Translations under genes and position numbers: made by a program
Shown here: positions 11,824-27,647 of the stretch, in pieces
Numbering within the stretch: the stretch's first letter is position 1
Layout of the letters: each line of letters starts with the position of its first letter
The notes under the pieces: model-generated
Databases searched by the model: none
Told to the model about the DNA's origin: nothing
Seen by the model: only the letters and a program-made list of their open reading frames with translations
Origin: an uncultured Gammaproteobacteria bacterium
GTDB taxonomy: Bacteria > Patescibacteriota > Patescibacteriia > VMEV01 > CAYQCH01
Assembly (NCBI GenBank): GCA_964503955.1
Contig: CAZDCG010000002.1
Span: forward strand, 205,047-269,046
Direction: 5' to 3'
Length of the DNA stretch: 64,000 nucleotides

Positions 11824-11911
11824 GTCTGATACAAACTTCTATAACGCTAAAGCCCCCTGCAAACCTCTCGGTCCGTAGGGGGCTTTCGCTTTGCAGCTCT
11901 CGGCTTGGGAG

Positions 11912-13478: not shown

Positions 13479-13592
13479 GCAGGGCCTTAAAAACAAGAAC
13501 GCACCGCAGGGACCGCTTGCCCGCCTCTGGAGGGGGATACGGTCGCCTTGCGGTGCGTGTGGCGGGGGAAGCTGTGAGGCATCCCCGCGCTT

Positions 13593-14126
13593 CTAGTCGA
13601 GATGGCTCAGGCTTTGCCAGCCGGCAAAGGTCGATCTCATCTCGAACGGCTCAAACCAGCTCGGCTCATGACTCCATACCGGAACCATCTTCGAGCCGTA
13701 GTTGATGGCCTGGCCGGTGCCGAGTGTGAGCCGCGGGTGGATTCCGGAGATCTCCTCCTGAATGCTCTCGTAGGCATCCTGGCGAGACTCAAGCTCAGCC
13801 AGCTGCCGGCTGAAGAATTCGCCGGTGCCCTGCGGATCGCAGAAGAACTCCTCGATGAGGAATTCCCTCCACGCGTACTTCGCGAAGATGGCGGTCACAC
13901 CGGACGTGTACAGCTGATCCTCGACACCAAGTGCGTAGATCGCGCTTCGGTAGTCGTGGATCGTGCTTCCGCCTTGGCGGTGAGAACGAAGGATCAGGAT
14001 GCCTTCCTTGTAGTGGATGTCGAGTTCCTCGCTCCGGTGGAATTTCCGGCTCAGGAGCTCTTCGTCGAGAAGCACCTCGCACTTGATGGCGAGAATGTTC
14101 ATGTTCTTCTGCAAGATACCTCCCAT
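13593..14126 (-). CDS. Hypothetical protein in a second high-GC cassette.
   Basis: ORF of 177 aa; the likelier start is at 14102 (MNILAIKCEV...). GC3 is strongly elevated relative to the backbone. No family recognised. Confidence 0.45.
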   Translation of the reverse strand: MGGILQKNMNILAIKCEVLLDEELLSRKFHRSEELDIHYKEGILILRSHRQGGSTIHDYRSAIYALGVEDQLYTSGVTAIFAKYAWREFLIEEFFCDPQGTGEFFSRQLAELESRQDAYESIQEEISGIHPRLTLGTGQAINYGSKMVPVWSHEPSWFEPFEMRSTFAGWQSLSHLD

Positions 14127-14457
14127 TGCTTAAGAGGGATTCACCCACACCGCTCCTCTCAAGCTTGTTGAAAAGAATGGTGAGGGGGGAGGCAGCACCT
14201 CTGATAACCATGATTTTCCACTTCGGATAACCACGCTAATGTATCACGAAAACGAGCTTTTGTCAAGGAAAATGGCAATTTTTCTTGAAAAATAGTCAAG
14301 ATTGTGGTTTACTCTCTTTGCGTAGCACCCGCTGCGCTTTGTTTTATGAAGACCACCCCCTGGCCCCCTCCTTATCAAGGAGTGGGAAGTAAGACCGCCA
14401 GCATTTGTCTGAGAGTCTGGTAAATCTGAAAAGTCTGAAAGGTCTTCGCGACAGCGA

Positions 14458-14532
14458 GGCCCCATCGTCTAGCGGCTAGGACGCCAGGTTCTCATCCTGG
14501 AAACCGGGGTTCGATTCCCCGTGGGGTCACCA
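14458..14532 (+). tRNA. tRNA-Glu (anticodon CTC).
   Basis: Cloverleaf GGCCCCA/TGGGGTC acceptor, anticodon arm CCAGG-TTCTCAT-CCTGG, T-arm CGGGG-TTCGATT-CCCCG, CCA encoded. Confidence 0.85.
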
Positions 14533-14606
14533 AAAAGAAACTAGTTCGAGCACTCGAGAAGGGTCGGTGCCGAATCCAAAAAGGACTACGAAAGTAGTTT
14601 CTTTTT
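14532..14606. repeat. 12-13 bp inverted repeat (AAAAAGAAACTAG ... TAGTTTCTTTTT) immediately 3' of tRNA-Glu, enclosing a CTCGAG-centred palindrome. It could be the tRNA terminator or the island junction (att remnant).
   Basis: The arms are at 14532-14544 and 14595-14606. The loop contains ttcgagcactcgagaa. Confidence 0.5.
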
Positions 14607-14638
14607 GTTGTAGTAAAATACAACAAAGCTTGCTATAC
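14604..14638 (+). promoter_or_regulatory. C-box-like operator (TTGTTGTA-gtaaaa-TACAACAA) overlapping the promoter of the controller gene. An extended -10 (TGcTATACT) follows.
   Basis: A perfect 8-bp inverted repeat at 14604-14625, and TATACT at 14633-14638, sit 10 bp upstream of the C-protein ATG. This matches the known autoregulatory architecture of R-M controller proteins. Confidence 0.5.
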
Positions 14639-14647
14639 TGTTTTCAT

Positions 14648-14860
14648 ATGACTATGCAACAAGATGCCCAAAAATTAGGGGAAAATCTTAAAAGAATACG
14701 GTCAGAGAAAAACATCACACAGAGCAAGCTTGCGGAAATTTTAGATGTCGATCGATCTTTTGTTAGCAATATTGAAAATGGGAAAACTAACCCGACACTC
14801 TCAACTATTACTAAACTTGCAAAGGCGCTTGACGTGCAAATTGAGAAATTGATCAAATAA
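14648..14860 (+). CDS. XRE-family HTH protein, a candidate R-M controller (C) protein.
   Basis: 70 aa from the ATG at 14648 (MTMQQDAQKLGENLKRIRSEKNITQSKLAEILDVDRSFVSNIENGKTNPTLSTITKLAKAL). It ends 3 bp before the methyltransferase start. Confidence 0.7.
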   Translation: MTMQQDAQKLGENLKRIRSEKNITQSKLAEILDVDRSFVSNIENGKTNPTLSTITKLAKALDVQIEKLIK

Positions 14861-14863
14861 CAC

Positions 14864-15847
14864 ATGAAGAAGATTTTATATCAAACAAGTTTAGGAAAAT
14901 ACGTTTTGGGTGATTCCAAAGCTCTTATTGAGAAAGGTGAACTGGATCAATACAAAAATAAGATCCAGCTAGTTTTATTTTCTCCGCCATTTCCTTTGAA
15001 TGCCAAGAAGAAGTATGGGAATAAACTCGGAAAGGAATATAAAAAGTGGTTGTCTGATCTTGCACCTCTATTTGCGAAGTTATTGAAAAAGGACGGTTCT
15101 ATCGTTGTAGAGATGGGAAATGCATGGGAACCTAAGCGTCCAATACAGGCACTACTATCCCTTGAGTCATTGATGGCTTTCGTGAGTAATCCTAAAGCTG
15201 ACCTGCGTTTATGTCAGGAGTTCATTTGCTACAACCCCTCACGCCTCCCGTCGCCAGCTCAATGGGTTACAGTCAATCGGATACGCACGATCGATAGCTA
15301 CACACATGTATGGTGGATGGCAAAATCAGACTTTCCTAAGGCAGACAATCGTCGAGTTCTCAGACCGTACAGCAAGAGCATGCTCCAGCTTCTCAAGCGC
15401 AAGAGTTATAACTCCGGCAAGAGACCATCGCAACACAGCATCAGCGAGAAAGGTTTTCTTACGAATAACAAAGGGAGCATCATGCACAATGTCCTCGAGC
15501 TTGAACAGATGGACGAAGAGAGGGACTTGCGCCTCCCGACAAATATGTTTAGTTTTGCAAACACAAATTCCAATGATTTTTTCTCAACGCAATGCCGTAA
15601 GAAAAACATACCCATACACCCGGCACGAATGCCGACGTCACTTGCAAACTTTTTTATTGAATTTCTGACCGAACCCGGCGACATAGTCTTTGATCCATTT
15701 GCCGGGACAAATACCACCGGCTATTGTGCAGAAAAGTTAAAAAGAAAATGGCTGTCAGTGGAGATCGACAAAGATTATGGTAAGCAGTCGATCATCAGGT
15801 TCAAAGAACCAAAACTTACCAAGAAATTAACTATTAAGAAGATATGA
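14864..15847 (+). CDS. Type II DNA methyltransferase, beta class (N6-adenine or N4-cytosine).
   Basis: 327 aa. Motif IV SPPF (LVLFSPPFP) is near the N-terminus and motif I (FxGxG-like, IVFDPFAGTNTTG) near the C-terminus. This is the circularly permuted beta order, as in M.PvuII and M.RsrI. Confidence 0.8.
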   Translation: MKKILYQTSLGKYVLGDSKALIEKGELDQYKNKIQLVLFSPPFPLNAKKKYGNKLGKEYKKWLSDLAPLFAKLLKKDGSIVVEMGNAWEPKRPIQALLSLESLMAFVSNPKADLRLCQEFICYNPSRLPSPAQWVTVNRIRTIDSYTHVWWMAKSDFPKADNRRVLRPYSKSMLQLLKRKSYNSGKRPSQHSISEKGFLTNNKGSIMHNVLELEQMDEERDLRLPTNMFSFANTNSNDFFSTQCRKKNIPIHPARMPTSLANFFIEFLTEPGDIVFDPFAGTNTTGYCAEKLKRKWLSVEIDKDYGKQSIIRFKEPKLTKKLTIKKI

Positions 15848-17832
15848 GCACAAAATCAGTCATCAAGAATCTAGCTTCCGTTGACATCCTTACTGCGGCA
15901 AAAGACCCCGGTGCTCTTATTGGACGTCCTTTCTATTTGGACTACGAAAAAGCATGCGTCCTTGTACCGGACGCTTGGAAAATGAAAGTCGGTGGGATAC
16001 CGCAAGGTGCATTCCTACTTGCTTTTTATGAGAACGATGAGGGTATCTCTGAAGCTCTGCTTTTGCGAGCACTTGGACCCAAAGGTTTACCTACTGACAG
16101 CGACGTGACTAGTTCAATGATCGAATACTACAAAGACAATCTTAAAACAGCAGACGTTAAAGGTAGCCAGCTTGATGACTTTACTCGTTACCACTTCAGC
16201 TTCTCAGGATTGGAGTGTCGCATCCTTGGGACCTTCTACAAAGATAAGTCTGGGACTGTAGTTTTTGGTGCAGATCTCGAAAACTTCTATAGTGCTCATA
16301 ATTACACTGTCTACAAGCCGTCGGGCAAAGTTCTAGAACAAATTGTGAACTATAAGGACTTGAACGAAGTAGCAGGAGGTGTGAGTGATGTGAAGATCGG
16401 GAATGTTCGATACAGTTCAAGTTTACGTTTTCAGGACGATATCGAAAAGGTACCCGTTTACATCAGCCCTAAAGACTTTATCGGCAAGCGAACCGCTCTC
16501 TTCGGTATGACTCGTACAGGTAAGTCGAACACGGTAAAGAAAATCATTGAAGCAACGGTTGAAATCAGCCAAAAAGCAAAGAGGAAAAATGGCACAGATG
16601 CGAGCACCGAACCTTTTACGAAGTCTGGCTTGACCAAAGAATCAATAGGCCAAATCATCTTCGACATCAACGGAGAATATGCAAATGCAAACCTACAGGA
16701 CGATGGTACGGCGATCTTCGAGATGTATAAAGACGATGTTGTTCGTTACAGCTTACTAGAAAAGCCAGGATTCAAGGTCATGAAGACAAACTTTTTTGAC
16801 GACATTGATGCTGGCTTTGAGTTGCTGTGCTCGCTGTTAGCTATGGACGACGCACGTTTCGTTTCTAACTTTCGCTCCATCGAGCTGACCGTTCCACAAG
16901 AACTGGAAGACGATCCGAGCTTTAAGGTAAGGCATGCGCGACGAGTTGCGGCGTACAAGTGTTGTTTGCACCAAGCTGGCTTTAAGCATAAGGACACAAC
17001 TATCAAATTCTCCGGAGAAGCGACTCTCAATGCTTTAGCAAGTGGAATTGACCCATCAAAGGGAATCTCATACGATCAAGCTGTGAACTGGTTCACAGCA
17101 GTGTGGGAGGCCACCGGAGAGAATGACTTTTTCGAGAATTATAAAAAGAAACATGAGGGTCGAGAATGGGCCGATGAAGACCTTAAAGCCCTGCTCGTGA
17201 TGCTCACACGCAAGCGTAGTCCCGGCTCTGGTAAAGGCGCAGACTGTAGCGGATTTAGGGTGTTTAAGCCTGCACTGAATTTGCATACAGAAAGTGTCGA
17301 CAAGCCCTACGCAATTGAAATTCTAGAGACCTTGAGGCAAGGTAAAATTGTGATCGCTGATCTATCGCAGGGTAATCCAGAAATAATTCAGCTCTACTCG
17401 GAGAAAATCTGCCAGAGAATATTTGCTGATGCGATGAATAATTTCATTGCAGCAAAAAGCAATAATTTTATTCAGATGTACTTCGAAGAAGCTCACAATC
17501 TTTTCCCAAAGCAGACAGATAAAGATCTCAGTAAAATATATAACCGCTTGGCAAAAGAGGGGGCAAAACTTCATCTCGGTATCGTCTACGCTACACAAGA
17601 AGTTAGTTCTATCAGCTCCAACATCCTCAAAAACACCCAGAATTGGTTTATTGCTCACCTTAACAACGAGGATGAGTTAAAGGAACTCAAAAAGTATTAC
17701 GACTTTACTGACTTCACTACCGGGCTTACCCGATTCAGCCCCAACACAGACAAGGGTTTTGTTCGTATGAAAACATACTCTAATCCGTTTGTAGTACCTG
17801 TTCAGATCGACCGATTTACAGCGAAGAAATAG
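15844..17832 (+). CDS. HerA/FtsK-superfamily ATPase (DUF87-like) with an N-terminal HAS-barrel-like region and a large insertion.
   Basis: 662 aa, with an ATGA overlap onto the methyltransferase stop. Walker A is ALFGMTRTGKSNTVKKII. The HerA-type IFDINGEY motif follows. Walker B is FIQMYFEEAHNLFP. The HerA C-terminal signature is LGIVYATQEVSSISSNILKNTQNWFIAHLNNEDE (compare TQRPs...lsQcnT...RL.N..D). Confidence 0.65.
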   Translation: MSTKSVIKNLASVDILTAAKDPGALIGRPFYLDYEKACVLVPDAWKMKVGGIPQGAFLLAFYENDEGISEALLLRALGPKGLPTDSDVTSSMIEYYKDNLKTADVKGSQLDDFTRYHFSFSGLECRILGTFYKDKSGTVVFGADLENFYSAHNYTVYKPSGKVLEQIVNYKDLNEVAGGVSDVKIGNVRYSSSLRFQDDIEKVPVYISPKDFIGKRTALFGMTRTGKSNTVKKIIEATVEISQKAKRKNGTDASTEPFTKSGLTKESIGQIIFDINGEYANANLQDDGTAIFEMYKDDVVRYSLLEKPGFKVMKTNFFDDIDAGFELLCSLLAMDDARFVSNFRSIELTVPQELEDDPSFKVRHARRVAAYKCCLHQAGFKHKDTTIKFSGEATLNALASGIDPSKGISYDQAVNWFTAVWEATGENDFFENYKKKHEGREWADEDLKALLVMLTRKRSPGSGKGADCSGFRVFKPALNLHTESVDKPYAIEILETLRQGKIVIADLSQGNPEIIQLYSEKICQRIFADAMNNFIAAKSNNFIQMYFEEAHNLFPKQTDKDLSKIYNRLAKEGAKLHLGIVYATQEVSSISSNILKNTQNWFIAHLNNEDELKELKKYYDFTDFTTGLTRFSPNTDKGFVRMKTYSNPFVVPVQIDRFTAKK

Positions 17833-17837
17833 CCGCT

Positions 17838-19187
17838 ATGTCTTACTCAAGCCGAGACGGTCGACGACCAAATGAATACGCCAGCAAATCCTCACACGGG
17901 TACATTATTCGTGATCCGGAAGTTTCGGAGTTTTTGGATAAATGCAATCTGCCAAAAACGGCGGAAGAGGTTGACGTGCCGACTAACCTCCAATTCGATC
18001 TGGGGGCACCAGAAAACCCAATAAAACATATTATTGCTATTGATGGTGGTCGATCCGAAGTGTTCGTAAGGAAAGATTTTCCATCGTCCACACTCACGTT
18101 CTTTCAATTTGGCGCACTATTTTTCAAGACGGAAGACCTTGAAGCAATATCAAAAAAGGCGTTCATCGATCCGGAGGACATGGCAAAGCTCAACACTATC
18201 GAAAGGTACAAATTGGCTTTGCCAACAAAAAACATTCTCTTGAAGGATGCGGCCTCTTTCAAAGAATCATTCCGAAAGTCACTGTTTGATTTCTTTATGA
18301 AAGGGTTGAGTGGCGAGACTTTCGCAGAGACACTGCGCTGGCTCATCTTTCAGGAATTTGATACTCCAATTGATGGGTACAATCTTTCTACCTGCCCTAA
18401 TTGTGGCGCAAGTGATATTCTTCTAGGTACAAAAATAAAAAAGACTAACTTTTCGTACCAGTGTCCACACTGCAAGGGGGAGATATTTATTACTGATATT
18501 TTCCGCCTGCATGAGGCTATCGATGACGAGCTTGGTGCCGGTGGAGTCTTGGGGTACGTGAATGTACTGATCGAGCAGATCATTATCGTCTATTTGATTA
18601 AAGCAATATTAGAGACCAAACCTTCGATTCTGAGCGAAACACTTTTTATAAAAGACGGACCACTTGCATTCTTTGGTCAGACAGCAAACATGCAAAAGCC
18701 ATTGAGGAAATTGACCACCTTTCTTTCTGAAAAGCACAATCTTTTTCTTGCTGGTTTAGAGAAAAGCGGACCTTTCGTAGAGCATGCAGATGAAATCGGA
18801 AGAAAATTAATGCCAGGGACTGTCTTGCTTTTGGACAACGCTTATATCTATAAATACATTTTGCCCGGTAAGGTTGATAACACAGCCCCATACGCCCGAA
18901 GTTCTTACTACTCCGGAAAAATGATTTTTAAGTCAACAGACGGGAAAATATATGTAGTAACTATGCCTACCAAGAACGCCGAAGTCGTTTTAGCTCCCAA
19001 GAAAAGTGACTTTCATAATTTGGACGTCATCCTCGCTAACATCCAGAAATTACGTTGTGATATGTACGACAATTCGCTTTTCCCAGTAGCTCTTGCGAAC
19101 AAGCTTGTATCTCTCGCAAATCATCCAAGCTCAGCGATTCTTGAAAAATTTGCAAAGAAAACAATTACATCAAAAACGACTCTTTAG
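17838..19187 (+). CDS. Putative nuclease partner of the HerA-like ATPase. It may be NurA-like (RNase H-like fold) with an inserted zinc ribbon.
   Basis: 449 aa, 5 bp after the HerA-like gene. IIAIDGGRSEV resembles NurA motif I and FIKDGPLAFFG resembles the later D-G-x-L motif. A CPNCG...CPHCKG zinc ribbon is present. The family assignment is tentative. Confidence 0.4.
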   Translation: MSYSSRDGRRPNEYASKSSHGYIIRDPEVSEFLDKCNLPKTAEEVDVPTNLQFDLGAPENPIKHIIAIDGGRSEVFVRKDFPSSTLTFFQFGALFFKTEDLEAISKKAFIDPEDMAKLNTIERYKLALPTKNILLKDAASFKESFRKSLFDFFMKGLSGETFAETLRWLIFQEFDTPIDGYNLSTCPNCGASDILLGTKIKKTNFSYQCPHCKGEIFITDIFRLHEAIDDELGAGGVLGYVNVLIEQIIIVYLIKAILETKPSILSETLFIKDGPLAFFGQTANMQKPLRKLTTFLSEKHNLFLAGLEKSGPFVEHADEIGRKLMPGTVLLLDNAYIYKYILPGKVDNTAPYARSSYYSGKMIFKSTDGKIYVVTMPTKNAEVVLAPKKSDFHNLDVILANIQKLRCDMYDNSLFPVALANKLVSLANHPSSAILEKFAKKTITSKTTL

Positions 19188-19232
19188 TCGTGCTCTGGGA
19201 GCTTTCATTTAGGCTTTTTGTTTCGTAATAAT

Positions 19233-19278
19233 TTTTGACTGAGTTATGTATAGATAACCACAAATTACTGAGTCAAAA
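19233..19278. repeat. Imperfect 12-bp inverted repeat (TTTTGACTGAGT ... ACTGAGTCAAAA) in the convergent gap between the nuclease gene and the recombinase 3' end. It is either a bidirectional terminator or a recombinase site.
   Basis: One mismatch between arms and a 22-bp spacer. It overlaps the recombinase stop codon. Confidence 0.35.
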
Positions 19279-20599
19279 CCTTCCCATTCTTCAAAACTAA
19301 CTCACTACTCACGCACTCCAATACCGATCTTTGCTCTAAAACACTTCCGTCTCGCAGCACAAACTTGGCGTAGTCTTTGAGATCTATCGGTTCAATCTTT
19401 TCGGTCTTTTTCTTGCCCAAGAACATCGCTTGGAGCTTTTTAAACTTTTGAATCTCGCTGTCTAGTTTGGCGGTCAATTTCACCCTATCAAGGCTGATGG
19501 TGTCGACCATCTTTAACAATGCTTCAACTAGTTCTGTTTCGTTGAGAGCTGAATTTTTGCAATGCCTATCTTTGGATTTGGTACATCTGTAGTAGACATG
19601 GCGATTCACTCCTCCTGCTTTTATCTTCTTAAACTTCTCATCCGCTGTAATGCCAGATCCACATTCACCACACGTCATAAGACGTGTAAATGCAAATTCT
19701 TTCCCCTGTGATTTAATCACCTGTGATTTTATTGATTTGCGTGTTTCATCGAACAATTCTTTGGTTATTATTGGCTTGTGTTTCCCGTCATACCAAGCTC
19801 CACTTCCTTGAGGGAATTCAAACCGACCGTAATAAAACGTATTATCAATAATCTTAAAAACATTACCTAGGCTCAAATGAAAACCTCGATGTGTTTTAAA
19901 ATCAAGCTCGTATTTAAGCCATTTATGAACTCGTGAGACACTCCATTTTTCATAAGCGATTTTTTCAAATATCTGTCGTATTATCTCCGCTCGTTCAGGA
20001 TCCAGTTCAACTTCACATTTGGCGGTTCTATCATTCACTTTTCTGTAGCCTGTTGGTGGCTGAGCCGGCCATAACCCCATTTCACAGCGTGTTCTCATAC
20101 CTCGTTTAACATTGATACTCTTGTTATCATTTTCAAGCTTTGCTTGGCTACAAAGAATCATCAGCAAGAATTTATCACTTGGCGAATTGGTGAATGTCTG
20201 GCCAAATGTTTTTATCTGAATCAATTTTTTTTGATCCATTCGATCGACCAGTTTCCCCAGATCGCCAGCGTTTCGGCTTAAACGATCTGGAGCCCAGGTG
20301 ATAACTCCATCAAAAATTCCTGAATCAATATCTTTTACCAGTTCTTCAAAAACAGGTCTTGTCCCAGATTCTTTAGCCGAGTGGGATTCTCTACGAATTT
20401 CAGACACCAAAAGATTTTCTCGTTCCGCAATTTGCGTCATCTCCTTGATTTGAGAATCAATGGATAATGCCTGCTTTTCATCGCCCTCGGTGGATTTACG
20501 AGCGTATAAACAATATTTTAGGTTGGGTTGAGCTTCTGTCATGTATTTATTAATGACAGATACCAATACATCTGCTAAGTCTATGCAGAATAGCCCCAT
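19265..20599 (-). mobile_element. Large serine recombinase (phage/ICE-type integrase).
   Basis: The N-terminal resolvase catalytic domain has YARKSTEGDEKQALSIDSQ (serine nucleophile region) and DRLSRN. The C-terminal recombinase domain has the zinc ribbon CGECGSG...YYRC. The likely true start is at 20542 (MTEAQPNLKYCLYARKS). Confidence 0.8.
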
Positions 20600-20605
20600 T
20601 ATTGC

Positions 20606-21001
20606 CTAATCGTCCCGGTGTTTACGTGGGCGTTTCTTGGTTTTTTCTTCTGAAAAATTAACAAATTCTATTCTATTCACTTTCATATTTGTATTTAGGG
20701 TCTCAAAGAAGTTCTTTGGTCTCGGTTTAACGTATTTCTTCTTATTATTATTCAACCAATATTCGATCGCTCGCATACTTCCTGTTTTAATGTTGTTTAT
20801 CAGCTTGCTCTCAGCCAAGTCGCTTACTGATTCTGCCCCCATATCCAATGCTTCGTCCATTTGTTTCTTAAACTCTGGATCTTCTTTGCGCCAACGATAA
20901 ACAGAGTTTCTGGCTATGCCAACTTTTTCACACGCAGCCGAAACAATTGGGACCAGCTTCAGTTCTTCGATAAATTTTTTAGCTAATCGCGGCTTTTTCA
21001 T
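20606..21001 (-). CDS. Small HTH protein resembling a terminase small subunit or an excisionase-like regulator, co-transcribed with the serine recombinase.
   Basis: 131 aa. VGIARNSVYRWRKEDPEFKK is a typical HTH_23/TerS-like motif. Its stop lies 6 bp before the recombinase start. Confidence 0.45.
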   Translation of the reverse strand: MKKPRLAKKFIEELKLVPIVSAACEKVGIARNSVYRWRKEDPEFKKQMDEALDMGAESVSDLAESKLINNIKTGSMRAIEYWLNNNKKKYVKPRPKNFFETLNTNMKVNRIEFVNFSEEKTKKRPRKHRDD

Positions 21002-22264
21002 CTCCTTTTATGATAGTGGCTTTGCCCCCAGTTAAACGCTCCCAACGTCTGATGATCAAGTCACAGAAAACTGGTTCCAGCTCTATTCCATATACTCGTC
21101 GCTTAAGCTGCTCGCAAGCAATAAGGGTGCTTCCTGAGCCGGAAAAGCTGTCCAAGATTATTTCTCCCGGCTTGGTACAGCGTAATATCGCTTTTTGATG
21201 AAGCTGTGGGGGCTTGGAGGTCGCATGCTCGTAGTCTTGGCCTGCAAGCCTCTTTACACTCCAAATGTCGCTGATTTCTTCCAGCATGGCATTCCCTGTA
21301 GATATATCTTTGTTCAGCACCTCCGTTAAATTAGTCATGTTTTTAGCAATAGAGGGTTTGCCTCTTGTGCCATAAACGCATGGTTCATAACATTTATTGA
21401 AGGCTACGCCAGGGGTAGGATTATGGCCATTTTTAATCCACAAACAAACGCGCTTATTATCAATGCCTAGTTCTTGATAGAGAGTTTGTATCAACCAAAT
21501 ATATTTTTGATCGCACCAGTAGAAGATATGCGCATTCTGCTTACTGACCAAAAGTGCTGTTTCCATGCTTTTTTTAATAAGTTTACGGTAATCAGCCTCA
21601 CTTCTGTTATCTTGAACTGATCCGCCATAGCTTTTTTTACCACCAATGCCAGCGTTGTAATCGATTTGTATGTTATAGACAGGGTCGCTGTATATCATTG
21701 AAGCCGATTTCTCCTCGAATAATTTCTTCACCACAGTAGGATCAGTTGAATCACCGCATATCAGTCTGTGTTCACCCATGATAACCAGATCACCAAGTTG
21801 AGTTAGCGGCTCCTTTATCTTTTTCAACTCCTTTTCGATCTCAAAATCATCGTCGTTAACCTCGGAGTTCTCATTCCAATGGCTTGCCAGCTCCACAGGC
21901 TCGAAACCAACATCAACTAAGGTTTCCATCTCAAAAAGCTTTAGAAGCTCATAATCCCAAGTCCCGTCATTATGGTTGCTCTCTAGCGAAATCTTGTCTT
22001 TTTCCTCTGCGGTAAGAGCTCGATCAGGGACAAGAACTGTAACCTCTGTATCCCTAAATCTTTGAGAGCTTTTTTACGTTGATTTCCAGAAAGAATTACT
22101 CCTTCCGTATCAACTTTCAAAACGTCATGAAACCCTCGCTCACTAATTCTTTCCTTCAATTTGAGAAAAGAAGCTTTACTTATCTTTCTCGGATTGTTTT
22201 TCCAGAGTTTTAGGTCAGAAACCTTGCGTTTCTCTGGACGCCATACGATTGTCGGCTTAGACAT
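20979..22264 (-). pseudogene. ParB-like nuclease domain fused to a DNA methyltransferase (phage-type). It is split by a single frameshift near 22048-22052.
   Basis: The upstream ORF (21983-22264) encodes a ParB-N domain, ...ILSGNQRKKALKDLGI. A -1/+2 frame then continues TEVTVLVPDRALTAEEKDKISLESNHNDGTWDYELL into the methyltransferase ORF (20979-21929). That ORF carries motif IV IYSDPVYN and motif I LDSFSGSGST. An A6 homopolymer lies 20 nt upstream of the shift. Confidence 0.6.
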
Positions 22265-22461
22265 ATTTTTATGTACTTAATTGTTAATAAAAAAATACCC
22301 GCGAATGGTCCAGTTGACTGGACACACTCACGGGTATTTCCCTGCGAGGAGTATTGATTTGTGAGGTAAGTATATATGCACCCGTTGGGAGTGTAAAGGC
22401 CTTGTGCTAGCTCATACATTTGCTTGCTTTTTTGTATAAAATGATTTATACTCTTTATACT

Positions 22462-23082
22462 ATGATAAAAGATCTCAAAGAAAAAGATAAACGGGCGTTT
22501 GCCCTTATCCGCAATAAGCTCATCCATGGCGATCAAAGCCCCACATTACGGGAAATTAATGAGGTTACAGGCGGTAAATCTCCCCGTTCAGCAAGCCTTG
22601 TTGTCAATCGTCTAATAGATGCCGGTCTCATAAAAAAGGTCGGGAGAGATTTTGTTTTAACGGCACCACCTAAGGGAAATTCTATTAGCACCGTTGATGT
22701 TCCTCTCGTAGGAGCTGTTTCATGCGGAATGCCGGTGCTAGCAGAAGAGAACATTCAGGACTATATTCCTGTCTCCACAGCTATGGCGAAAAGTGGTAGC
22801 AAATATTTTCTGCTTCGCGCGATTGGTGATTCAATGAATGATGCTGGAATTAATCCTGGCGACCTTCTCCTTGTTCGACAACAGCCAACCGCTAACGACG
22901 GTGAAAAAGTAGTCGCTCTTATCAACGATGAAGCTACCGTGAAAGTCTTTGAGAAAGCAAAAGACGCCGTAATATTGAAACCAAAATCAAAAAACAAAGA
23001 ACATAAACCTATAATATTAACTGATGATTGCATGATCCAAGGTGTTGTTACTGCGGTACTTCCCGGGGATTTATGTGAGTAA
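22462..23082 (+). CDS. LexA-like repressor (wHTH plus S24 peptidase).
   Basis: 206 aa from the ATG at 22462. The S24 catalytic motifs are AIGDSMNDAGINPGDLLLV and a downstream Lys (KVFEK). The N-terminal domain is LexA-like. Confidence 0.7.
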   Translation: MIKDLKEKDKRAFALIRNKLIHGDQSPTLREINEVTGGKSPRSASLVVNRLIDAGLIKKVGRDFVLTAPPKGNSISTVDVPLVGAVSCGMPVLAEENIQDYIPVSTAMAKSGSKYFLLRAIGDSMNDAGINPGDLLLVRQQPTANDGEKVVALINDEATVKVFEKAKDAVILKPKSKNKEHKPIILTDDCMIQGVVTAVLPGDLCE

Positions 23083-23086
23083 ATAT

Positions 23087-23326
23087 ATGCCAAAGAAAAA
23101 TATACACACTGTGTACAACACAAGTAGAAAAATGTGGGAAACAAAAAAAGAAGGACAAAAGAAGTCCCTGGCAAGCTCTCGAACAAAGGCAACAGCTATG
23201 CAAAAGTCTGTTCGTGAAGCCAAAAAAGCTCAGGCTGAGCATGTCATTCATAATAAAGACGGTAAGATAAGAGATCAGGACAGTTACGGAAAAGACCCAA
23301 ACCCACCAAAAGATAAGAAGCACTAA
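23087..23326 (+). CDS. DUF2188-family small protein.
   Basis: 80 aa. MPKKNIHTVY...HVIHNKDGKIRDQDSYGKDPNPPKD matches the conserved DUF2188 pattern (xVVPxxGGWxV ... VHxxDGRIRxxxSYGxDPxPP). Confidence 0.5.
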   Translation: MPKKNIHTVYNTSRKMWETKKEGQKKSLASSRTKATAMQKSVREAKKAQAEHVIHNKDGKIRDQDSYGKDPNPPKDKKH

Positions 23327-23327
23327 T

Positions 23328-24218
23328 ATGACCTGGGAAGATACTTTTAAATCTTGGGGGGCTGCTCCAAGTACAACGGAGCAACAAAAGATGGAAAATG
23401 CGGAGACGGCCATAAGAAAAGCCATTGAAGCAAATTCTCAATTGTCGTGCATGGATATATCATTCATACCTCAAGGTTCTTATAAATCAAAAACGAATGT
23501 AAGGAACGATAGTGATGTTGATATTTGTGTTTGTTTAAATTCGACTTTTTTTCCCAGATATCCTATTGGTAAGACAAAGGAACATTACGGGAATATAGGT
23601 GGAACTATTACTTTTTCAGCTTTCAAGAACTTGGTTCAAAGAGCGCTCGAAGATTATTTTGGCAAGGAAAGTGTCGATCGCGGTAATAAAGCTTTTGATA
23701 TCCACTCAAACACGTACAGAGTCGATGCCGATGTCGTTCCTGCTTTTGCGTATAGGTATTATTACGATACAGGTTTCAAATGGCACGATCCTGAGGGTAT
23801 TTGCTTCTTAGCTGATGACGGCACAAAGATTATAAACTGGCCACACCAAGTCTACGAAAACTGCAAAAACAAACACACTGTAACAGGACAAAGATATCGC
23901 AAAGTAACAAGAATTTTAAAAAGACTAAGAAACAGGATGCAAGAGGAAGATATTATTGAAGCAAGAGATATTCCCTCATTTTTGATCCAAAGCATGGTGT
24001 GGGGAGCACCTGATGATCATTTCAATAGGGACACCTACTCTGCGGATGTTCGCGCTGTGCTTGCGCATTGTCATAACGAGACATTGCCAAACGGAAATCA
24101 CGCTGATCTGCGAGAAGTCAACAATATTAAACTAATTTACGGAACTCACCAGCCCTGTACAAGAGAAAGGGCTCACGCTTTTTTTGCTAAGTCATGGGAC
24201 TATATTGGATTTAAATAA
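23328..24218 (+). CDS. SMODS-domain nucleotidyltransferase (cGAS/DncV-like, CD-NTase-type), the CBASS-like cyclase.
   Basis: 296 aa. It has the GS...DxD motif (QGSYKSKTNVRNDSDVDICVCL) and a third acidic residue in YRVDADVVPAF. The N-terminal pattern is typical of SMODS. Confidence 0.6.
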   Translation: MTWEDTFKSWGAAPSTTEQQKMENAETAIRKAIEANSQLSCMDISFIPQGSYKSKTNVRNDSDVDICVCLNSTFFPRYPIGKTKEHYGNIGGTITFSAFKNLVQRALEDYFGKESVDRGNKAFDIHSNTYRVDADVVPAFAYRYYYDTGFKWHDPEGICFLADDGTKIINWPHQVYENCKNKHTVTGQRYRKVTRILKRLRNRMQEEDIIEARDIPSFLIQSMVWGAPDDHFNRDTYSADVRAVLAHCHNETLPNGNHADLREVNNIKLIYGTHQPCTRERAHAFFAKSWDYIGFK

Positions 24219-24222
24219 ACAC

Positions 24223-24846
24223 ATGGATAAGGTAAATGCCACGGTTAGGGTATATGTTCAAATTCTCGCTTTTCTTGTCATTTGGAGCATTACCATTCTC
24301 GTTACTAAAACGTATTCTGTTTTTGATTTTTGGACGGCAGTTAAATTAATCCCACAAGCAATTTCAGCCTACGCACTCTTAGGAATTATCTTTGTAAAAT
24401 GGCTCTGGCGTTTGAAGTTTTTACAAGGTTGGTTGATAAAAATACCAGATCTTCAAGGAACCTGGCGAGGCGAACTTAAAAGTGACTGGATAAACCCTGA
24501 AACTGGTAAGGGTATTGATCCAATACCTGTGCTTTTAGTTATCCGACAAACCTTTTCGAGTATTCAATGCACCATGATGACACGAGAATCCTCAAGTTAC
24601 AGTACCACCGCAAATATCAACGCCGCTCCTAATAGCGAAGACCTCTATTTAACATATAATTATACTAATAGACCTAAAGCGACGATCAGAGATAGAAGTG
24701 CAATTCATGATGGGGCCTCTATACTAAAGATTATCTCAAAACCAAATAGATTTCTTGAAGGAGAATATTGGACAAGTCGTAAAACCCGCGGGGAGATAGC
24801 ACTTGTTTTTGATTCAAAGGATCTTAAGGAAAAAATTGAGTTTTGA
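24223..24846 (+). CDS. Two-TM membrane effector with a beta-rich C-terminal domain (S-2TMbeta-like), the CBASS-like effector.
   Basis: 208 aa, starting 5 bp after the SMODS gene. Two TM helices (VRVYVQILAFLVIWSITILV and AISAYALLGIIFVKWLW) are followed by a beta-strand-rich region. Confidence 0.5.
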   Translation: MDKVNATVRVYVQILAFLVIWSITILVTKTYSVFDFWTAVKLIPQAISAYALLGIIFVKWLWRLKFLQGWLIKIPDLQGTWRGELKSDWINPETGKGIDPIPVLLVIRQTFSSIQCTMMTRESSSYSTTANINAAPNSEDLYLTYNYTNRPKATIRDRSAIHDGASILKIISKPNRFLEGEYWTSRKTRGEIALVFDSKDLKEKIEF

Positions 24847-25145
24847 AGCACTTAAAAAAGCAAAAGTGACGACAGCCCGTTACTTTTCATCTCTAATCCG
24901 TGTCACTTTTGTCACTATTTATGAGAGAGGATGATAAGTTGAACATGAAAAACTGGACTTATGAAGAGAGAGAAAATCTAATTGGATTCTTTGAATTATT
25001 GCTTGAAGTAGATAGACGAAATAACCCACATCTTTTCACTAAAAATAGCTCTCTCGAGAAGGGTCGAGTAGATAAACAAGGATAGAAGCCCAAAGGCCTT
25101 ACTGGGCAAGGAAATATTTTGGTCGCATCTCGAAAAGGCTCACCA

Positions 25146-25172
25146 CAAAAACCGCTCAAAGAGCGGTTTTTG
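25146..25172 (+). terminator. Rho-independent terminator.
   Basis: AAACCGCTC-aaa-GAGCGGTTT followed by TTTG. Confidence 0.6.
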
Positions 25173-25186
25173 TAATCTAGCGTCTA

Positions 25187-25210
25187 AGATCTACATCTGT
25201 ATCTAGATCT
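25187..25210. repeat. Inverted repeat AGATCTA-catctgtatc-TAGATCT, with further ATCTAG copies nearby. It is a candidate island boundary or recombination site.
   Basis: Perfect 7-bp arms lie about 340 bp after the last island gene, just after a terminator. GC composition returns to backbone values downstream. Confidence 0.35.
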
Positions 25211-25326
25211 AGGCAACGTCATAATCTTCTTCATGTTTTAGGTATAGATGCATATGCAGAATGTAAGATACAAATCCCGGTGCCGCTTCGTGGGATTATC
25301 TGATATAGTAAGACGGAACTTAAACG

Positions 25327-25899
25327 ATGAAGCATATGTCTGACAAGAAATTATTATCCTCTAAGCAGCGTGAAGAATTGCTGGCTGTGCTCAAGGCGCG
25401 TTTTGAAGAAAATAAGCATCGCCACAAAGGCATGGACTGGAAAAAGGTAGAAGCGAGGCTAAAAACCAAAGCAACAAAACTTTGGGCATTGAACCAAATG
25501 GAGAAAACGGGGGGCGAGCCCGATGTGGTTGGATTTGATAAGAAGAGCGGGGAATATCTCTTTGTGGATTGTTCTGAGGAAAGTCCGAAAGGCCGCCGAA
25601 GCCTCTGTTATGACCAGCAGGCCCTGAAAGATAGAAAGGAGCATAAGCCCAAAGACAGCGCTGTGCATATGGCAGAGTCTATGGGGATTGAGCTGTTGTC
25701 AGAGGACGAGTATCGAAAACTGCAACGGCTTGGAGAATTTGATGCGAAAACCTCAAGCTGGGTAAAGACACCTGCTGAGATCCGCAAGCTTGGCGGTGCG
25801 CTGTTTTGCGATCGCCGCTACGATATGGTTTTCATGTATCACAACGGTGCTCAATCTTACTACGCGGCCAGAGGGTTTCGAGGCTCTTTAAGAGTATAG
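25327..25899 (+). CDS. Hypothetical protein (DUF4256-like).
   Basis: 190 aa. The MK..LS.KQ.EELL..L..RFE.N..RH start resembles DUF4256. The assignment is uncertain. Confidence 0.35.
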   Translation: MKHMSDKKLLSSKQREELLAVLKARFEENKHRHKGMDWKKVEARLKTKATKLWALNQMEKTGGEPDVVGFDKKSGEYLFVDCSEESPKGRRSLCYDQQALKDRKEHKPKDSAVHMAESMGIELLSEDEYRKLQRLGEFDAKTSSWVKTPAEIRKLGGALFCDRRYDMVFMYHNGAQSYYAARGFRGSLRV

Positions 25900-27237: not shown

Positions 27238-27647
27238 ACTACTGGTTAGTCAAATCAGAACCGGAAACCTATTCTTTTGATGATTTGAAACGAGATAAGC
27301 GCACGGTCTGGGACGGCGTGCGTAATTTCGCGGCCAGAAATAATTTGCGGGATATGAAAAAAGGAGATCTCGCCTTGTTTTATCATAGCGGGAAGGGGAA
27401 AGAGATTGTGGGTATTGCCAAAGTAACAAAAGAAGCATTCCCTGATCCAACCGCCGACGCTGCTGAACGCGAAACATGGTCTTCTGTTGAGCTAAGCTAT
27501 GTCAAAGCGCTTAAAACGCCGGTTACCTTGGCTGATGCGAAGAAAGATAAACAGCTTGCTTCCATGCAGCTAGTGACGCATTCTCGTTTATCGGTTCAAA
27601 AAGTGAAGCCCGCTGAATACGCCAAGATATTGAAAAAGAGCGAATGA
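27234..27647 (+). CDS. EVE (PUA-like) domain protein.
   Basis: 137 aa. The N-terminus MNYWLVKSEPETYSFDDL is typical of EVE-domain proteins. Confidence 0.7.
   Translation: MNYWLVKSEPETYSFDDLKRDKRTVWDGVRNFAARNNLRDMKKGDLALFYHSGKGKEIVGIAKVTKEAFPDPTADAAERETWSSVELSYVKALKTPVTLADAKKDKQLASMQLVTHSRLSVQKVKPAEYAKILKKSE

What the first reader, a model, noticed from the sequence alone, without database searches (positions are those of the whole stretch)
14533..25230. Low-GC integrated island at tRNA-Glu carrying a serine integrase and three defence modules
Composition falls to roughly 38% GC against a backbone of about 50%. The segment starts directly after tRNA-Glu and an inverted repeat (14532-14606). 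Its contents are the C-M-HerA-NurA operon, a convergent large serine recombinase with a TerS/excisionase-like HTH gene, a ParB-methyltransferase (frameshifted), a LexA-like repressor, a DUF2188 gene and a SMODS+2TM pair. It ends near a terminator and an AGATCTA inverted repeat (25146-25210), after which core genes (greA etc.) resume. The integrase is internal, so this may be two adjacent elements or a decayed composite.
Basis: partly seen in the sequence, partly recalled or inferred. Interest (0 to 1): 0.7.

Follow-up and report, generated by a model that had tools for sequence, protein, structure and literature searches.

The report
Defence-cargo island inserted at tRNA-Glu
A 10.6-kb piece of foreign DNA sits at the end of a tRNA-Glu gene in a Patescibacteria (CPR) genome; it belongs to a large, apparently undescribed family of phage-derived serine-integrase islands that carry interchangeable anti-phage defence cassettes between these very small bacteria.

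Summary
I correct the right end to 25145 (TCACCA repeated at 14527-14532 and 25140-25145). The terminator and the AGATCTA repeat beyond it are host DNA.

Relatives show this is one element, not a composite. Dozens of Patescibacteria contigs carry the same backbone at tRNA-Glu:
- a small Cro/C1-type HTH control protein, then cargo bay 1;
- a convergent large serine recombinase (75-88% identical across lineages), a small terminase subunit (sometimes also the large one) and a ParB-methyltransferase;
- a divergent CI-like S24 repressor, then cargo bay 2, a 57-aa ORF and a conserved arm.

The bays hold different defence systems in different copies. Here bay 1 holds a methyltransferase-HerA-NurA trio and bay 2 holds a type I CBASS. 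Among solved structures the trio is closest to TdpAB, the restriction part of the phosphorothioate-based Tdp system.

Host core genes are at most 69% identical to anything else, while island genes reach 88-90%.

I found no empty site and no excised circle for this copy, so its present mobility is inferred. I rate it a new variant of a known kind.

The parts
14458..14532 (+). tRNA-Glu(CTC), the integration target. Its last six bases, TCACCA (14527-14532), are repeated at the right end.
   Evidence: ARAGORN; Rfam tRNA 60.5 bits; coordinates of TCACCA.
14533..14607 (+). Left att arm supplied by the element (P'). It comprises the spacer aaaagaaacta, the conserved motif GTTCGAGCACTCGAGAAGGGTC (14544-14565, which includes the 14-bp repeat at 14553-14566), a hairpin (14544-14575) and a terminator-like hairpin (14577-14607).
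   Evidence: The motif occurs in 80 metagenome loci. Within one subtype the sequence is 100% identical from the motif onward, while the upstream tRNA bodies differ. L098 has this same arm joined to a non-tRNA block. Fold.
14607..14624 (+). Palindrome GTTGTAGTAAAATACAAC, a putative operator for the control protein. It is conserved in front of the HTH gene in relatives that carry different cargo.
   Evidence: Sequence. GTTGTAGTnnAATACAAC follows the motif in 20 of 81 sites, with near variants in many more.
14648..14860 (+). 70-aa Cro/C1-type HTH control (C) protein; the backbone gene that opens cargo bay 1.
   Evidence: Pfam HTH_3 2.6e-17; PADLOC control protein 1.4e-13; 69% identical to the L079 HTH that heads a type I restriction-modification operon.
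14864..15847 (+). Bay 1 cargo: N6_N4 DNA methyltransferase (327 aa).
   Evidence: Pfam N6_N4_Mtase 2.5e-28; PADLOC MTase_II 2.7e-75.
15844..17832 (+). Bay 1 cargo: HerA-family ATPase (662 aa), closest to TdpA among solved structures.
   Evidence: Pfam DUF87 7.5e-12; PADLOC HerA 2.6e-21; best Protein Data Bank sequence hit TdpA 8wet, 3.7e-18.
17838..19187 (+). Bay 1 cargo: NurA-fold nuclease with an inserted zinc ribbon (449 aa).
   Evidence: Some homologues carry PF09376 or the NCBI name NurA. AlphaFold model pLDDT 79.7. Best Foldseek hits are TdpB 8wfd_G (9e-9) and Deinococcus NurA 7f6d_G (2.3e-6). Conserved IAIDGG and KDGPLAF motifs.
19265..20542 (-). Large serine recombinase (425 aa from Met20; the open frame runs to 20599), intact.
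   Evidence: Pfam Resolvase + Recombinase + Zn_ribbon_recom; more than 100 homologues at 80-88% identity in Patescibacteria; conserved YARKSTE serine motif; Protein Data Bank hits to SPbeta SprA/YokA and the TP901-1 integrase.
20606..21001 (-). Terminase small subunit-like HTH protein (131 aa), a backbone gene.
   Evidence: Pfam HTH_Tnp_1_2 1.7e-8 and Sf6_terminase 1.4e-4; PHROG terminase small subunit 2e-10; 47-50% identical to homologues that sit next to a terminase large subunit in L078, L084 and L085.
20979..22264 (-). ParB-domain N6_N4 DNA methyltransferase, a backbone gene, interrupted by one frameshift near 22045-22052.
   Evidence: tblastn with the 424-aa L078 homologue: residues 6-81 in one frame, 71-419 in another; frames shown.
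22265..22461 (.). Divergent control region between the repressor operon and the methyltransferase-terminase-integrase operon.
   Evidence: Sequence; best promoter-like site of the island, 22397-22369 on the - strand, 10 of 12. Its function is inferred.
22462..23082 (+). CI/LexA-like S24 repressor (206 aa), the backbone gene that opens cargo bay 2.
   Evidence: Pfam Peptidase_S24 1.6e-28; PHROG transcriptional repressor 1.4e-21; found at the same position in L078, L085, L089 and L177.
23087..23326 (+). DUF2188 protein; also follows the repressor in L078.
   Evidence: Pfam DUF2188 1.3e-11; PADLOC candidate PDC-S16 1.4e-22; 52% identical to the L078 copy.
23328..24846 (+). Bay 2 cargo: type I CBASS, made of a CD-NTase (23328-24218) and a Cap15 two-transmembrane effector (24184-24846).
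   Evidence: PADLOC cyclase 8.3e-115 and 2TM effector 3.2e-77; Pfam Cap15_CD_rec 6.2e-22.
24901..25085 (+). TGTCACTTTTGTCAC motif (24901-24915) and a conserved 54-57-aa ORF (24921-25085) that runs through the second copy of CTCGAGAAGGGTCG (25053-25066).
   Evidence: 53% identical to the L078 ORF; homologues at the same end of L078, L079, L085 and L089; repeat statistics.
25097..25145 (+). Right att arm of the element (P): CCTTACTGGGCAA ... GGTCGCATCTCGAAAAGGCTCACCA, ending in the repeated TCACCA (25140-25145).
   Evidence: The same block ends the related islands, and the sequence after CAC differs in each genome. The block is joined directly to spacer + motif in attP-like junctions.
25145..25173 (+). 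Host terminator, probably the original tRNA-Glu terminator; not part of the island.
   Evidence: Perfect 13-bp inverted repeat (I23). A terminator follows the block in L078, L087 and L089 too. A relative's tRNA-Glu is followed directly by a terminator.

Best explanation
The segment 14533-25145 is one integrative island. A large serine recombinase inserted it at the 3' end of tRNA-Glu. It belongs to a widespread Patescibacteria family with a phage-derived backbone and two bays that hold exchangeable defence cassettes.

Shown:
- The backbone recurs at tRNA-Glu in many different genomes.
- The element's two arms are conserved up to the base run TCAC(CA), and the host sequence differs beyond it.
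- The cargo differs between copies.

Inferred:
- The recombinase joins the element's attP (right arm + left arm) to the tRNA's 3' end. The element brings a new trailer and terminator for the tRNA.
- The CI-like S24 repressor keeps the methyltransferase-terminase-integrase operon silent. It is co-transcribed with DUF2188 and the CBASS pair, so that defence is expressed in the resident state.
- After repressor cleavage the integrase excises the island. The terminase small subunit would direct its packaging into a helper phage's capsid, or the circle could spread by DNA uptake.
- In bay 1 the control protein delays expression so that the methyltransferase marks host DNA first. The HerA motor with the NurA nuclease then degrades unmarked DNA, as TdpAB does for DNA lacking phosphorothioate.

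This copy has lost the large terminase subunit and has a frameshift in its ParB-methyltransferase. It may therefore move poorly or not at all.
For: Foreign origin:
- GC and tetranucleotide composition set the segment apart.
- The host PBP2 is at most 69% identical to any other protein. The island's recombinase reaches 88% and its NurA 90% identity to proteins from other Patescibacteria.

Family:
- The same gene order appears in L078, L079, L085, L087, L089, L090, L163 and L177, with other cargo: Thoeris, type I, type III and MmeI-type restriction-modification, Shedu, T5orf172 with a helicase, DUF4238, and a diversity-generating retroelement.
- tRNA-Glu is adjacent in L079, L080, L083 and L084, and in most of the 80 scanned loci.

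Boundaries:
- In the largest subtype (10 sites) pairwise identity is 0.34-0.74 upstream of TCAC. It is 0.81-0.94 in the spacer and 1.00 for more than 80 nt after it.
- The right arm is conserved, and the sequence after CAC is unique to each genome.
- Junctions of right arm + spacer + motif, the predicted attP, exist in 11 loci.

Other support:
- The recombinase is always convergent with the tRNA, 77-104 bp or 3-7.6 kb from the motif.
- A census of 108 bay 1 ORFs from 38 loci is dominated by restriction-modification and defence families.
- The recombinase is intact.
- The backbone is phage-like: PHROG terminase small subunit and repressor, and terminase large subunit 3.3e-76 in relatives.
- The HerA-NurA pair is closest to TdpA and TdpB.
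- The methyltransferase-HerA-NurA trio is conserved in Dehalococcoides and in an archaeon.
Against: - No empty site and no circular junction was found for this genome. Every same-strain contig that reaches a junction shows it occupied.
- Contig L001 starts exactly at 25140, but L175 from another sample starts at 25130. Contig breaks therefore prove nothing.
- The exact crossover dinucleotide is unresolved. The first 3-6 nt after CAC vary within a subtype.
- The role of the three CTCGAGAAGG(G/C)TC copies is unknown.
- No replication gene or capsid gene was found in any member, and no helper phage was identified.
- The ParB-methyltransferase is frameshifted and the large terminase subunit is absent here.
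- The defence function of the methyltransferase-HerA-NurA trio is untested, and PADLOC has no model for its nuclease.
Confidence: 0.8

Rival explanations
1. This is a fixed remnant of a prophage or island. It entered at tRNA-Glu in the past, has since decayed, and can no longer move; its defence genes are now ordinary chromosomal genes.
For: - The ParB-methyltransferase is frameshifted.
- There is no terminase large subunit and no 139-aa gene, both of which several relatives have.
- No structural genes are present.
- No empty site or circle was found in five samples of the same strain.
Against: - The recombinase is full-length with all conserved motifs.
- Both att arms are intact and match the family.
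- Several relatives also lack the large terminase subunit (L079, L087, L119, L163), so its absence is a common variant rather than decay.
- The frameshift is a single base and could be an assembly error.
Confidence: 0.2
2. This is a phage satellite. The island is silent until a helper phage infects or is induced. It then excises and uses its own small terminase subunit (plus the large one in some members) to be packaged into the helper's capsids.
For: - The backbone has an integrase, a CI-like repressor, a terminase small subunit and in some members a large subunit.
- No capsid, tail or lysis genes occur in any of the complete islands of 4-16 kb.
- The islands carry defence cargo, as P4-like and PICI satellites do (own knowledge).
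Against: - No replication module was detected.
- No helper phage with related terminase genes was found. Every IMG/VR hit to the large terminase subunit is another island of this family.
- Packaging was not tested.
Confidence: 0.25
3. These are two adjacent elements or a composite: a restriction-modification cassette at 14567-19187, and a separate integrase element at 19265-25200.
For: The integrase is 4.7 kb from the left end. The two halves are transcribed convergently.
Against: - The same layout, with varied cargo between the left arm and the convergent integrase, recurs across the family.
- The HTH control gene and its operator at the left end are backbone, being 69-90% identical between islands with different cargo.
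- No att-like repeat lies between 19187 and 19265.
Confidence: 0.04
4. The crossover lies inside the perfect 14-bp direct repeat CTCGAGAAGGGTCG (14553-14566 and 25053-25066). The island would then be exactly 10,500 bp, and the conserved block to its right would be host DNA.
For: The repeat is perfect and unexpected by chance (0.01 expected per window). A rebuilt attB would have the dyad ACTCGA-GAAGGG-TCGAGT.
Against: - None of 81 motif sites is followed by the block, which is the structure this model predicts for an empty site.
- The spacer and motif travel with the element subtype, not with the host tRNA.
- The block is followed by a host terminator in each genome.
- A relative's tRNA-Glu has no motif downstream.
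Confidence: 0.04

Closest known systems
Elements integrated by large serine recombinases (SPbeta prophage with SprA, TP901-1, the SCCmec Ccr cassettes)
   Same: The recombinase has the same three-domain build (resolvase, recombinase and zinc-ribbon domains). Its best sequence matches among solved structures are SPbeta SprA/YokA and the TP901-1 integrase, and NCBIfam's best match is CcrB. Integration is site-specific with only a short shared core. In the simplest family members the recombinase gene sits next to attP.
   Different: The target is the 3' end of a tRNA gene, a habit better known for tyrosine integrases (own knowledge). Most members have a cargo bay inserted between the recombinase gene and attP. 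The arms carry three copies of a 14-bp motif and a tRNA-end-like block of unknown role. The hosts are Patescibacteria.
Phage satellites that carry defence hotspots (P4-like elements, PICIs and the minimalist PICMIs)
   Same: Islands of 4-16 kb with an integrase, a master repressor, a packaging gene (terminase small subunit) and variable defence cassettes at fixed positions. The comparison with satellites rests on my own knowledge of those families.
   Different: The integrase is a serine rather than a tyrosine recombinase. No primase or replication module and no capsid-remodelling gene were detected. No helper phage is known. Some members keep a large terminase subunit.
TdpABC, the phosphorothioate-based restriction system of thermophiles (TdpC modifies; TdpA-TdpB restrict)
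   Same: The island's HerA and NurA-fold proteins have TdpA and TdpB as their best matches among solved structures. As in Tdp, they sit next to a DNA-modification gene in a three-gene unit. PMC12914056 states that the tdpABC cluster needs only tdpC to make the phosphorothioate mark. That TdpAB degrades unmodified DNA is from my own memory of the Tdp work.
   Different: The modification gene is an N6/N4 DNA methyltransferase, not TdpC. A Cro/C1-type control protein precedes the operon. The NurA protein has an inserted zinc ribbon. PADLOC 2.0 has no model for this nuclease. No experiment exists for this trio as far as I could find.
Type I CBASS with a Cap15 effector
   Same: A CD-NTase followed by a Cap15 two-transmembrane beta-barrel effector, with no Cap2/Cap3 genes (PADLOC 8.3e-115 and 3.2e-77; Pfam Cap15_CD_rec).
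   Different: Nothing notable except its position: it lies downstream of a CI-like repressor and DUF2188 in a mobile island of a CPR bacterium.
Archaeal and bacterial HerA-NurA DNA-end resection complexes
   Same: The same two folds in adjacent genes.
   Different: Here the pair is fused into an operon with a methyltransferase and a control protein on a mobile island. In other taxa it sits beside other defence genes. This points to restriction rather than repair.

Membership tests
Island integrated by a large serine recombinase | Recombinase with resolvase catalytic domain, recombinase domain and zinc ribbon, and an intact catalytic serine motif | tested here: met
   Pfam 5.2e-21, 3.6e-11 and 5e-9; invariant YARKSTE and full-length alignment with six homologues.
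Island integrated by a large serine recombinase | Defined att arms flanking the element, with a short shared core | tested here: met
   TCACCA at 14527-14532 and 25140-25145. The left and right arms are conserved across the family up to CAC, and host sequence differs beyond it. The exact crossover dinucleotide is not resolved.
Island integrated by a large serine recombinase | The same element family inserted at the same target in unrelated genomic contexts | tested here: met
   tRNA-Glu (TTC or CTC) is adjacent in L079, L080, L083, L084, L085 and L089, and in most of 80 metagenome loci with different flanking genes.
Island integrated by a large serine recombinase | An empty target site in close relatives of this host | tested here: inconclusive
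   No empty site appears in same-strain contigs. The nearest relative found (PBP2 67% identical) has a tRNA-Glu followed directly by a terminator with no element arm, but in a different gene order.
Island integrated by a large serine recombinase | Excision or circular attP junction for this copy | not testable with these tools
   Reads cannot be mapped here. attP-like junctions of relatives exist inside longer contigs, probably as tandem arrays.
Phage satellite (PICI / P4-like) | Integrase plus master repressor plus a packaging-redirection gene, with no structural genes | tested here: met
   Complete relatives of 4-16 kb have no capsid or tail genes by Pfam or backbone tblastn.
Phage satellite (PICI / P4-like) | Its own replication module (primase or replication initiator) | tested here: not met
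   No such domain occurs in the window island or in the backbones of relatives.
Phage satellite (PICI / P4-like) | Induction and packaging by a helper phage | not testable with these tools
   Searching virus contigs with the terminase large subunit returned only further islands of this family.
Intact prophage | Capsid, portal, tail and lysis genes | tested here: not met
   None in 14533-25145. L084/L177, at first taken for a prophage, has the same island backbone.
TdpABC-like modification-dependent HerA-NurA restriction | HerA-family hexameric ATPase paired with a NurA-fold nuclease | tested here: met
   The best structural and sequence matches are TdpB and TdpA.
TdpABC-like modification-dependent HerA-NurA restriction | TdpC phosphorothioate-forming enzyme as the modification partner | tested here: not met
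   The adjacent gene is an N6_N4 DNA methyltransferase. The same methyltransferase partner occurs in Dehalococcoides and in an archaeon.
TdpABC-like modification-dependent HerA-NurA restriction | Degrades unmodified invading DNA and spares modified host DNA | not testable with these tools
   Needs phage challenge and methylome experiments.
Type I CBASS | CD-NTase plus a single effector, with no Cap2/Cap3 or HORMA/TRIP13 genes | tested here: met
   PADLOC cyclase 8.3e-115 and 2TM effector 3.2e-77; Cap15_CD_rec 6.2e-22; no further genes lie between 24846 and the 57-aa ORF.
C-protein-controlled restriction-modification operon | Small HTH control gene with an upstream palindromic operator, ahead of the modification and restriction genes | tested here: met
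   PADLOC control protein 1.4e-13; palindrome at 14607-14624, conserved in relatives. Its regulatory action was not tested.
tRNA-targeting island with a tyrosine integrase | Tyrosine recombinase next to the tRNA, and duplication of the tRNA's 3' part | tested here: not met
   No tyrosine recombinase domain is present. Only 6 bases of the tRNA are repeated.

The most novel reading that the evidence does not exclude
These islands would be the main vehicle that moves anti-phage defence between Patescibacteria lineages. They would form a phage-satellite-like family that keeps a nearly invariant serine integrase, always lands on tRNA-Glu, and rides in helper-phage capsids using its own terminase. 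It would offer two standard sockets, one controlled by a C protein and one by a CI-like repressor, into which any defence cassette can be plugged. One such cassette would be a methylation-based counterpart of the Tdp system (methyltransferase + HerA + NurA) not yet recognised as a restriction class.
Probability: 0.25. Interest if true: 0.8.

Novelty: new variant of a known kind. Interest (0 to 1): 0.6.

Why it matters
Patescibacteria have very small genomes and few known mobile elements, and how they acquire defence genes is poorly understood. One published survey reports genomic islands with restriction-modification genes in these bacteria, but its text never mentions a recombinase, an integrase or a tRNA site (PMC12455944).

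This study yields four things:
- A single island family with a highly conserved integrase and a fixed landing site at the 3' end of tRNA-Glu.
- Two cargo bays in that family. Together these give a concrete, searchable route for defence exchange across the radiation.
- A ready way to find new defence systems, by reading what sits in the bays.
- Predicted attP and attB sequences for a compact serine integrase, which could be tested as a genome-engineering tool.

Separately, the methyltransferase-HerA-NurA trio is widespread in bacteria and archaea. It looks like a methylation-based relative of TdpAB, and current defence-finder models do not cover its nuclease.

Tried and rejected
1. Crossover inside the 14-bp repeat CTCGAGAAGGGTCG (my first model). 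Rejected after the metagenome scan: no site has the predicted empty-site structure, and the motif travels with the element.

2. Synteny through DUF4256. The single genome-collection scan returned only distant relatives from other phyla (75% or less). This gene is itself horizontally spread and useless for finding the empty site.

3. Exact-protein look-ups of flank genes (DUF4256, the M23 peptidase and near-identical variants). They returned only contigs of the same strain with the island present, or contigs too short.

4. Contig breaks as a sign of a mixed population. L001 starts exactly at 25140, but L175 starts at 25130, so this is not evidence.

5. The right-arm block as a tRNA or another known RNA. 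ARAGORN finds nothing on the rebuilt site, and Rfam shows only noise.

6. L084 as a true prophage or helper phage. The full contig (L177) shows the same island backbone with no structural genes.

7. Megablast of the island against phage and plasmid collections: no match.

8. A profile of the NurA-like family against Protein Data Bank sequences: no hit. The fold search was needed instead.

9. attP-like junctions as excised circles. No contig has terminal overlaps, and L122 has no backbone genes upstream of its junction. These are arrays or remnants, not proven circles.

10. Literature searches for a described serine-recombinase island family in Patescibacteria, or for a methyltransferase-HerA-NurA defence system: none found in the held library.

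Full report
**Observation**

The composition drop is real. GC is 0.37-0.45 from about 14500 to 25400. For 14533-25139 it is 0.412, against 0.490 for the rest of the window. No other 10.6-kb window falls below 0.476. The tetranucleotide distance to the rest is 0.348, against a maximum of 0.183 elsewhere.

tRNA-Glu(CTC) lies at 14458-14532 (Rfam 60.5 bits).

The gene list is right (Pfam, PADLOC, NCBIfam, PHROGs):
- a 70-aa Cro/C1-type HTH control protein, an N6_N4 methyltransferase and a HerA ATPase;
- a 449-aa protein, discussed below;
- a convergent large serine recombinase and a terminase-small-subunit-like HTH protein;
- a second N6_N4 methyltransferase with a ParB-like N-terminus;
- an S24 CI/LexA-like repressor, DUF2188, a CD-NTase and a Cap15 effector.

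The ParB-methyltransferase is split by one frameshift near 22045-22052.

The 449-aa protein has no direct Pfam NurA hit. Some homologues at 56-65% identity carry PF09376 or the NCBI name NurA. A model built on 21 sequences (pLDDT 79.7) matches NurA-fold structures first: TdpB 8wfd_G (9e-9), Deinococcus NurA 7f6d_G (2.3e-6), then the Thermococcus, Thermotoga, Sulfolobus and Pyrococcus proteins.

**Host and foreign origin**

The host's PBP2/FtsI has its nearest named relatives in Parcubacteria, the Patescibacteria group and Uhrbacteria. It is at most 69% identical to any other protein in 5.8 billion.

The island's recombinase has more than 100 homologues at 80-88% identity. Where the sources give a name, it is Paceibacterota, Nomurabacteria, Moranbacteria or Patescibacteria. 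The NurA protein has homologues at 90% identity from Yanofskybacteria, Parcubacteria and Doudnabacteria.

Island genes that are far closer to those of distant lineages than any core gene is, together with the composition, show horizontal acquisition.

**A family, not a one-off**

Contigs encoding close homologues of the recombinase show one architecture. In the window's orientation it reads:
- tRNA-Glu, a conserved left arm, and the small HTH control gene;
- cargo bay 1;
- then, on the opposite strand, the recombinase, sometimes a terminase large subunit, the terminase small subunit, the ParB-methyltransferase and sometimes a 139-aa gene;
- a divergent S24 repressor (an HTH regulator in L079), sometimes followed by DUF2188;
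- cargo bay 2;
- a conserved 54-57-aa ORF and a conserved right arm.

Bay 1 holds different cargo in different copies:
- type I restriction-modification with AbiJ (L079);
- an MmeI-type enzyme plus a helicase and T5orf172 (L085);
- type III restriction-modification (L087);
- type I restriction-modification plus Shedu (L089);
- methyltransferase-HerA-NurA (the window).

Bay 2 holds Thoeris (L078), a metallo-beta-lactamase-fold trio (L085, L089), a 1380-aa protein (L079) or CBASS (the window).

A census of 108 bay 1 ORFs from 38 distinct loci is dominated by restriction-modification and defence families. These include ResIII, EcoRI-type and N6 methylases, T5orf172, DUF4238, HNH, GmrSD and type I, II, III and IIG PADLOC models.

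Complete islands measured between their arms span 4.0 to 15.8 kb.

In every locus long enough to show both features, the recombinase gene is convergent with the tRNA. Its 3' end is 77-104 bp from the left arm in a clade about 76% identical to the window's recombinase, where bay 1 is empty. It is 3-7.6 kb away in the 80-87% clade.

**Boundaries**

I first found a perfect 14-bp direct repeat, CTCGAGAAGGGTCG, at 14553 and 25053 (0.01 expected by chance) and took it for the crossover. A scan of the metagenome collection for the surrounding motif, GTTCGAGCACTCGASAAGGSTC, returned 80 loci, which is the cap.

- None of the 81 sites has the structure that model predicts for an empty site.
- Within one element subtype the sequence is identical from the motif onward for more than 80 nt, while the tRNA bodies upstream differ. 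They include both TTC and CTC anticodons, different T arms, one pseudo-tRNA block and one non-tRNA sequence.
- Mean pairwise identity is 0.34-0.74 upstream of TCAC, 0.81-0.94 in the spacer and 1.00 after it.
- Spacer, motif, hairpins and operator therefore belong to the element.

On the right side, a conserved block (CCTTACWGGGCAA ... GGGTCGCATCTCGAnnAGGCTCAC) ends each island. It is followed by sequence unique to each genome, usually a terminator.

The two arms are found directly joined in 11 loci, as predicted for attP, probably in tandem arrays. One of these, L098, has the window's own unusual spacer (aaaagaaacta) joined to a block instead of a tRNA.

In the window the arms meet the host at TCACCA (14527-14532 and 25140-25145). 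The rebuilt attP has the dyad CTCGAA-23 nt-TTCGAG, centred on the base after TCACCA. This follows from the sequences.

The terminator at 25145-25173 is then the tRNA's original terminator. In the nearest relative I could find (PBP2 67% identical), a tRNA-Glu ending in TCACCA is followed directly by a terminator with no element arm, although the gene order there differs.

**What is not shown**

- I found no empty site and no circle for this genome.
- The start of contig L001 at exactly 25140 is suggestive. It is weakened by L175 starting at 25130.
- The exact crossover dinucleotide is open.
- So is the role of the three copies of the 14-bp motif. The third copy, at 25129, has three mismatches.
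- The tRNA-end-like block matches no tRNA or Rfam family.

**Mechanism**

The backbone is phage-derived:
- a CI-like S24 repressor (PHROG 1.4e-21);
- a terminase small subunit (2e-10; six of its seven PHROG hits);
- in relatives, a terminase large subunit (3.3e-76).

No member has capsid, tail, lysis or replication genes. L084, which I first took for a prophage, proved to be the same island with a diversity-generating retroelement and a type III restriction-modification system between the large terminase subunit and the integrase. Searching virus contigs with the large terminase subunit found only further islands.

The rest is inference from established knowledge:
- S24 repressors cleave themselves when RecA is activated.
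- Phage lambda co-transcribes rexAB with cI.
- C proteins delay restriction when a restriction-modification system enters a new cell.

From this I infer a resident state in which the repressor operon expresses DUF2188 and CBASS. I infer an induced state that expresses the ParB-methyltransferase, terminase and integrase for excision and transfer. I infer a C-controlled bay 1.

The route of transfer is unknown. It could be helper-phage capsids or DNA uptake.

**The bay 1 cassette**

Among solved structures, the island's HerA matches TdpA best (3.7e-18). This is ahead of the HerA proteins of the SIR2-HerA and DUF4297-HerA systems. Its nuclease matches TdpB best.

The Tdp system is a phosphorothioate-based restriction system in which tdpC alone makes the mark (PMC12914056). 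That TdpAB degrades unmarked DNA is from my memory of that work.

Here the partner gene is an N6/N4 methyltransferase. The same three-gene unit (about 330, 644-664 and 446-448 aa) sits beside other defence genes in Dehalococcoides and in a Methanomarinus archaeon. The nuclease family has about 2,400 members at E ≤ 1e-5 among the scored candidates.

PADLOC 2.0 has no model for the nuclease. I found no paper describing the trio as a defence system. I read it as a methylation-based relative of TdpAB; this is untested.

**Comparison and verdict**

This is a serine-recombinase island. Its domains, intact motifs, arms and target all meet the definition. The empty site and excision for this copy remain unproven.

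It works like a defence-carrying phage satellite but fails one defining feature, a replication module, so I do not file it as one.

The CBASS pair is an ordinary type I system.

In the held literature, one survey reports Patescibacteria genomic islands with restriction-modification genes, but its text never mentions a recombinase, an integrase or a tRNA site (PMC12455944). Searches combining serine recombinase terms with Patescibacteria terms listed no paper that describes such a family.

My rating is a new variant of a known kind, interest 0.6. The island itself is an ordinary kind of object. The size and uniformity of its family in a poorly understood radiation, its fixed sockets for defence cargo, and the methyltransferase-HerA-NurA cassette are worth following up.

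Noticed in passing
L078 about 2700-3000 and L079 about 1380-1480 (minus strand of each locus): Copies of a long hairpin unit (GGGGTCGCGAACACTTTG...TTAGTGATTCGTGACC) lie just outside the right end of the related islands. In L079 one abuts an 18-nt copy of the tRNA-Glu 3' end (GACTCCCCGTAGGGTCAC). They may be older att remnants or a small repeat element.
   Followed up: no
L087 18028-18142, L092, L098, L102, L111, L113, L116, L122, L128, L149 5030-5070: About a third of the distinct motif sites are preceded by the element's own right-arm block instead of a tRNA. These are attP-like junctions inside longer contigs, which implies tandem arrays or remnants piling up at this site. How a serine recombinase would build such arrays is unclear.
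   Followed up: partly
window 14553-14566, 25053-25066, 25129-25142: Three copies of CTCGAGAAGG(G/C)TC(G/A), two perfect and one with three mismatches, are spread over both att arms. One copy lies inside the 3' end of the conserved 57-aa ORF. Their function is unknown; they may be accessory protein-binding sites.
   Followed up: partly
window 24901-24915: The direct repeat TGTCAC-TTT-TGTCAC lies just upstream of the 57-aa ORF and is conserved in L078, L079 and L087. In L087 it is fused directly to the 14-bp motif, with the ORF deleted. It may be an operator.
   Followed up: no
window 25327-25899: The DUF4256 gene next to the island has its best relatives (75% or less) in Ignavibacteria, Acidobacteriota and Bacteroidota rather than Patescibacteria. 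It may itself be an older horizontal acquisition at this hotspot.
   Followed up: partly
L177 (= L084 contig) 9579-17400: A related island carries a diversity-generating retroelement (bAvd + reverse transcriptase) and a type III restriction-modification system between the terminase large subunit and the integrase. This is a third cargo position.
   Followed up: partly
L085 1386-2590: A DUF5343 + HEPN_Swt1 gene pair lies immediately beyond the right arm of a related island. L086, otherwise identical, diverges inside this pair. This could be a second element or an assembly chimera.
   Followed up: no
L182, L183, L184 (ends of the loci): Contigs of a related Patescibacterium from three samples all stop at the same base inside a tRNA-Glu gene. 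This suggests that the tRNA-Glu locus is a point of variation or repetition there too.
   Followed up: partly
window 27234-27647 and 27788-28471: An EVE-domain protein and HrcA lie downstream of greA. I noted them only from the gene tables of the matching contigs.
   Followed up: no
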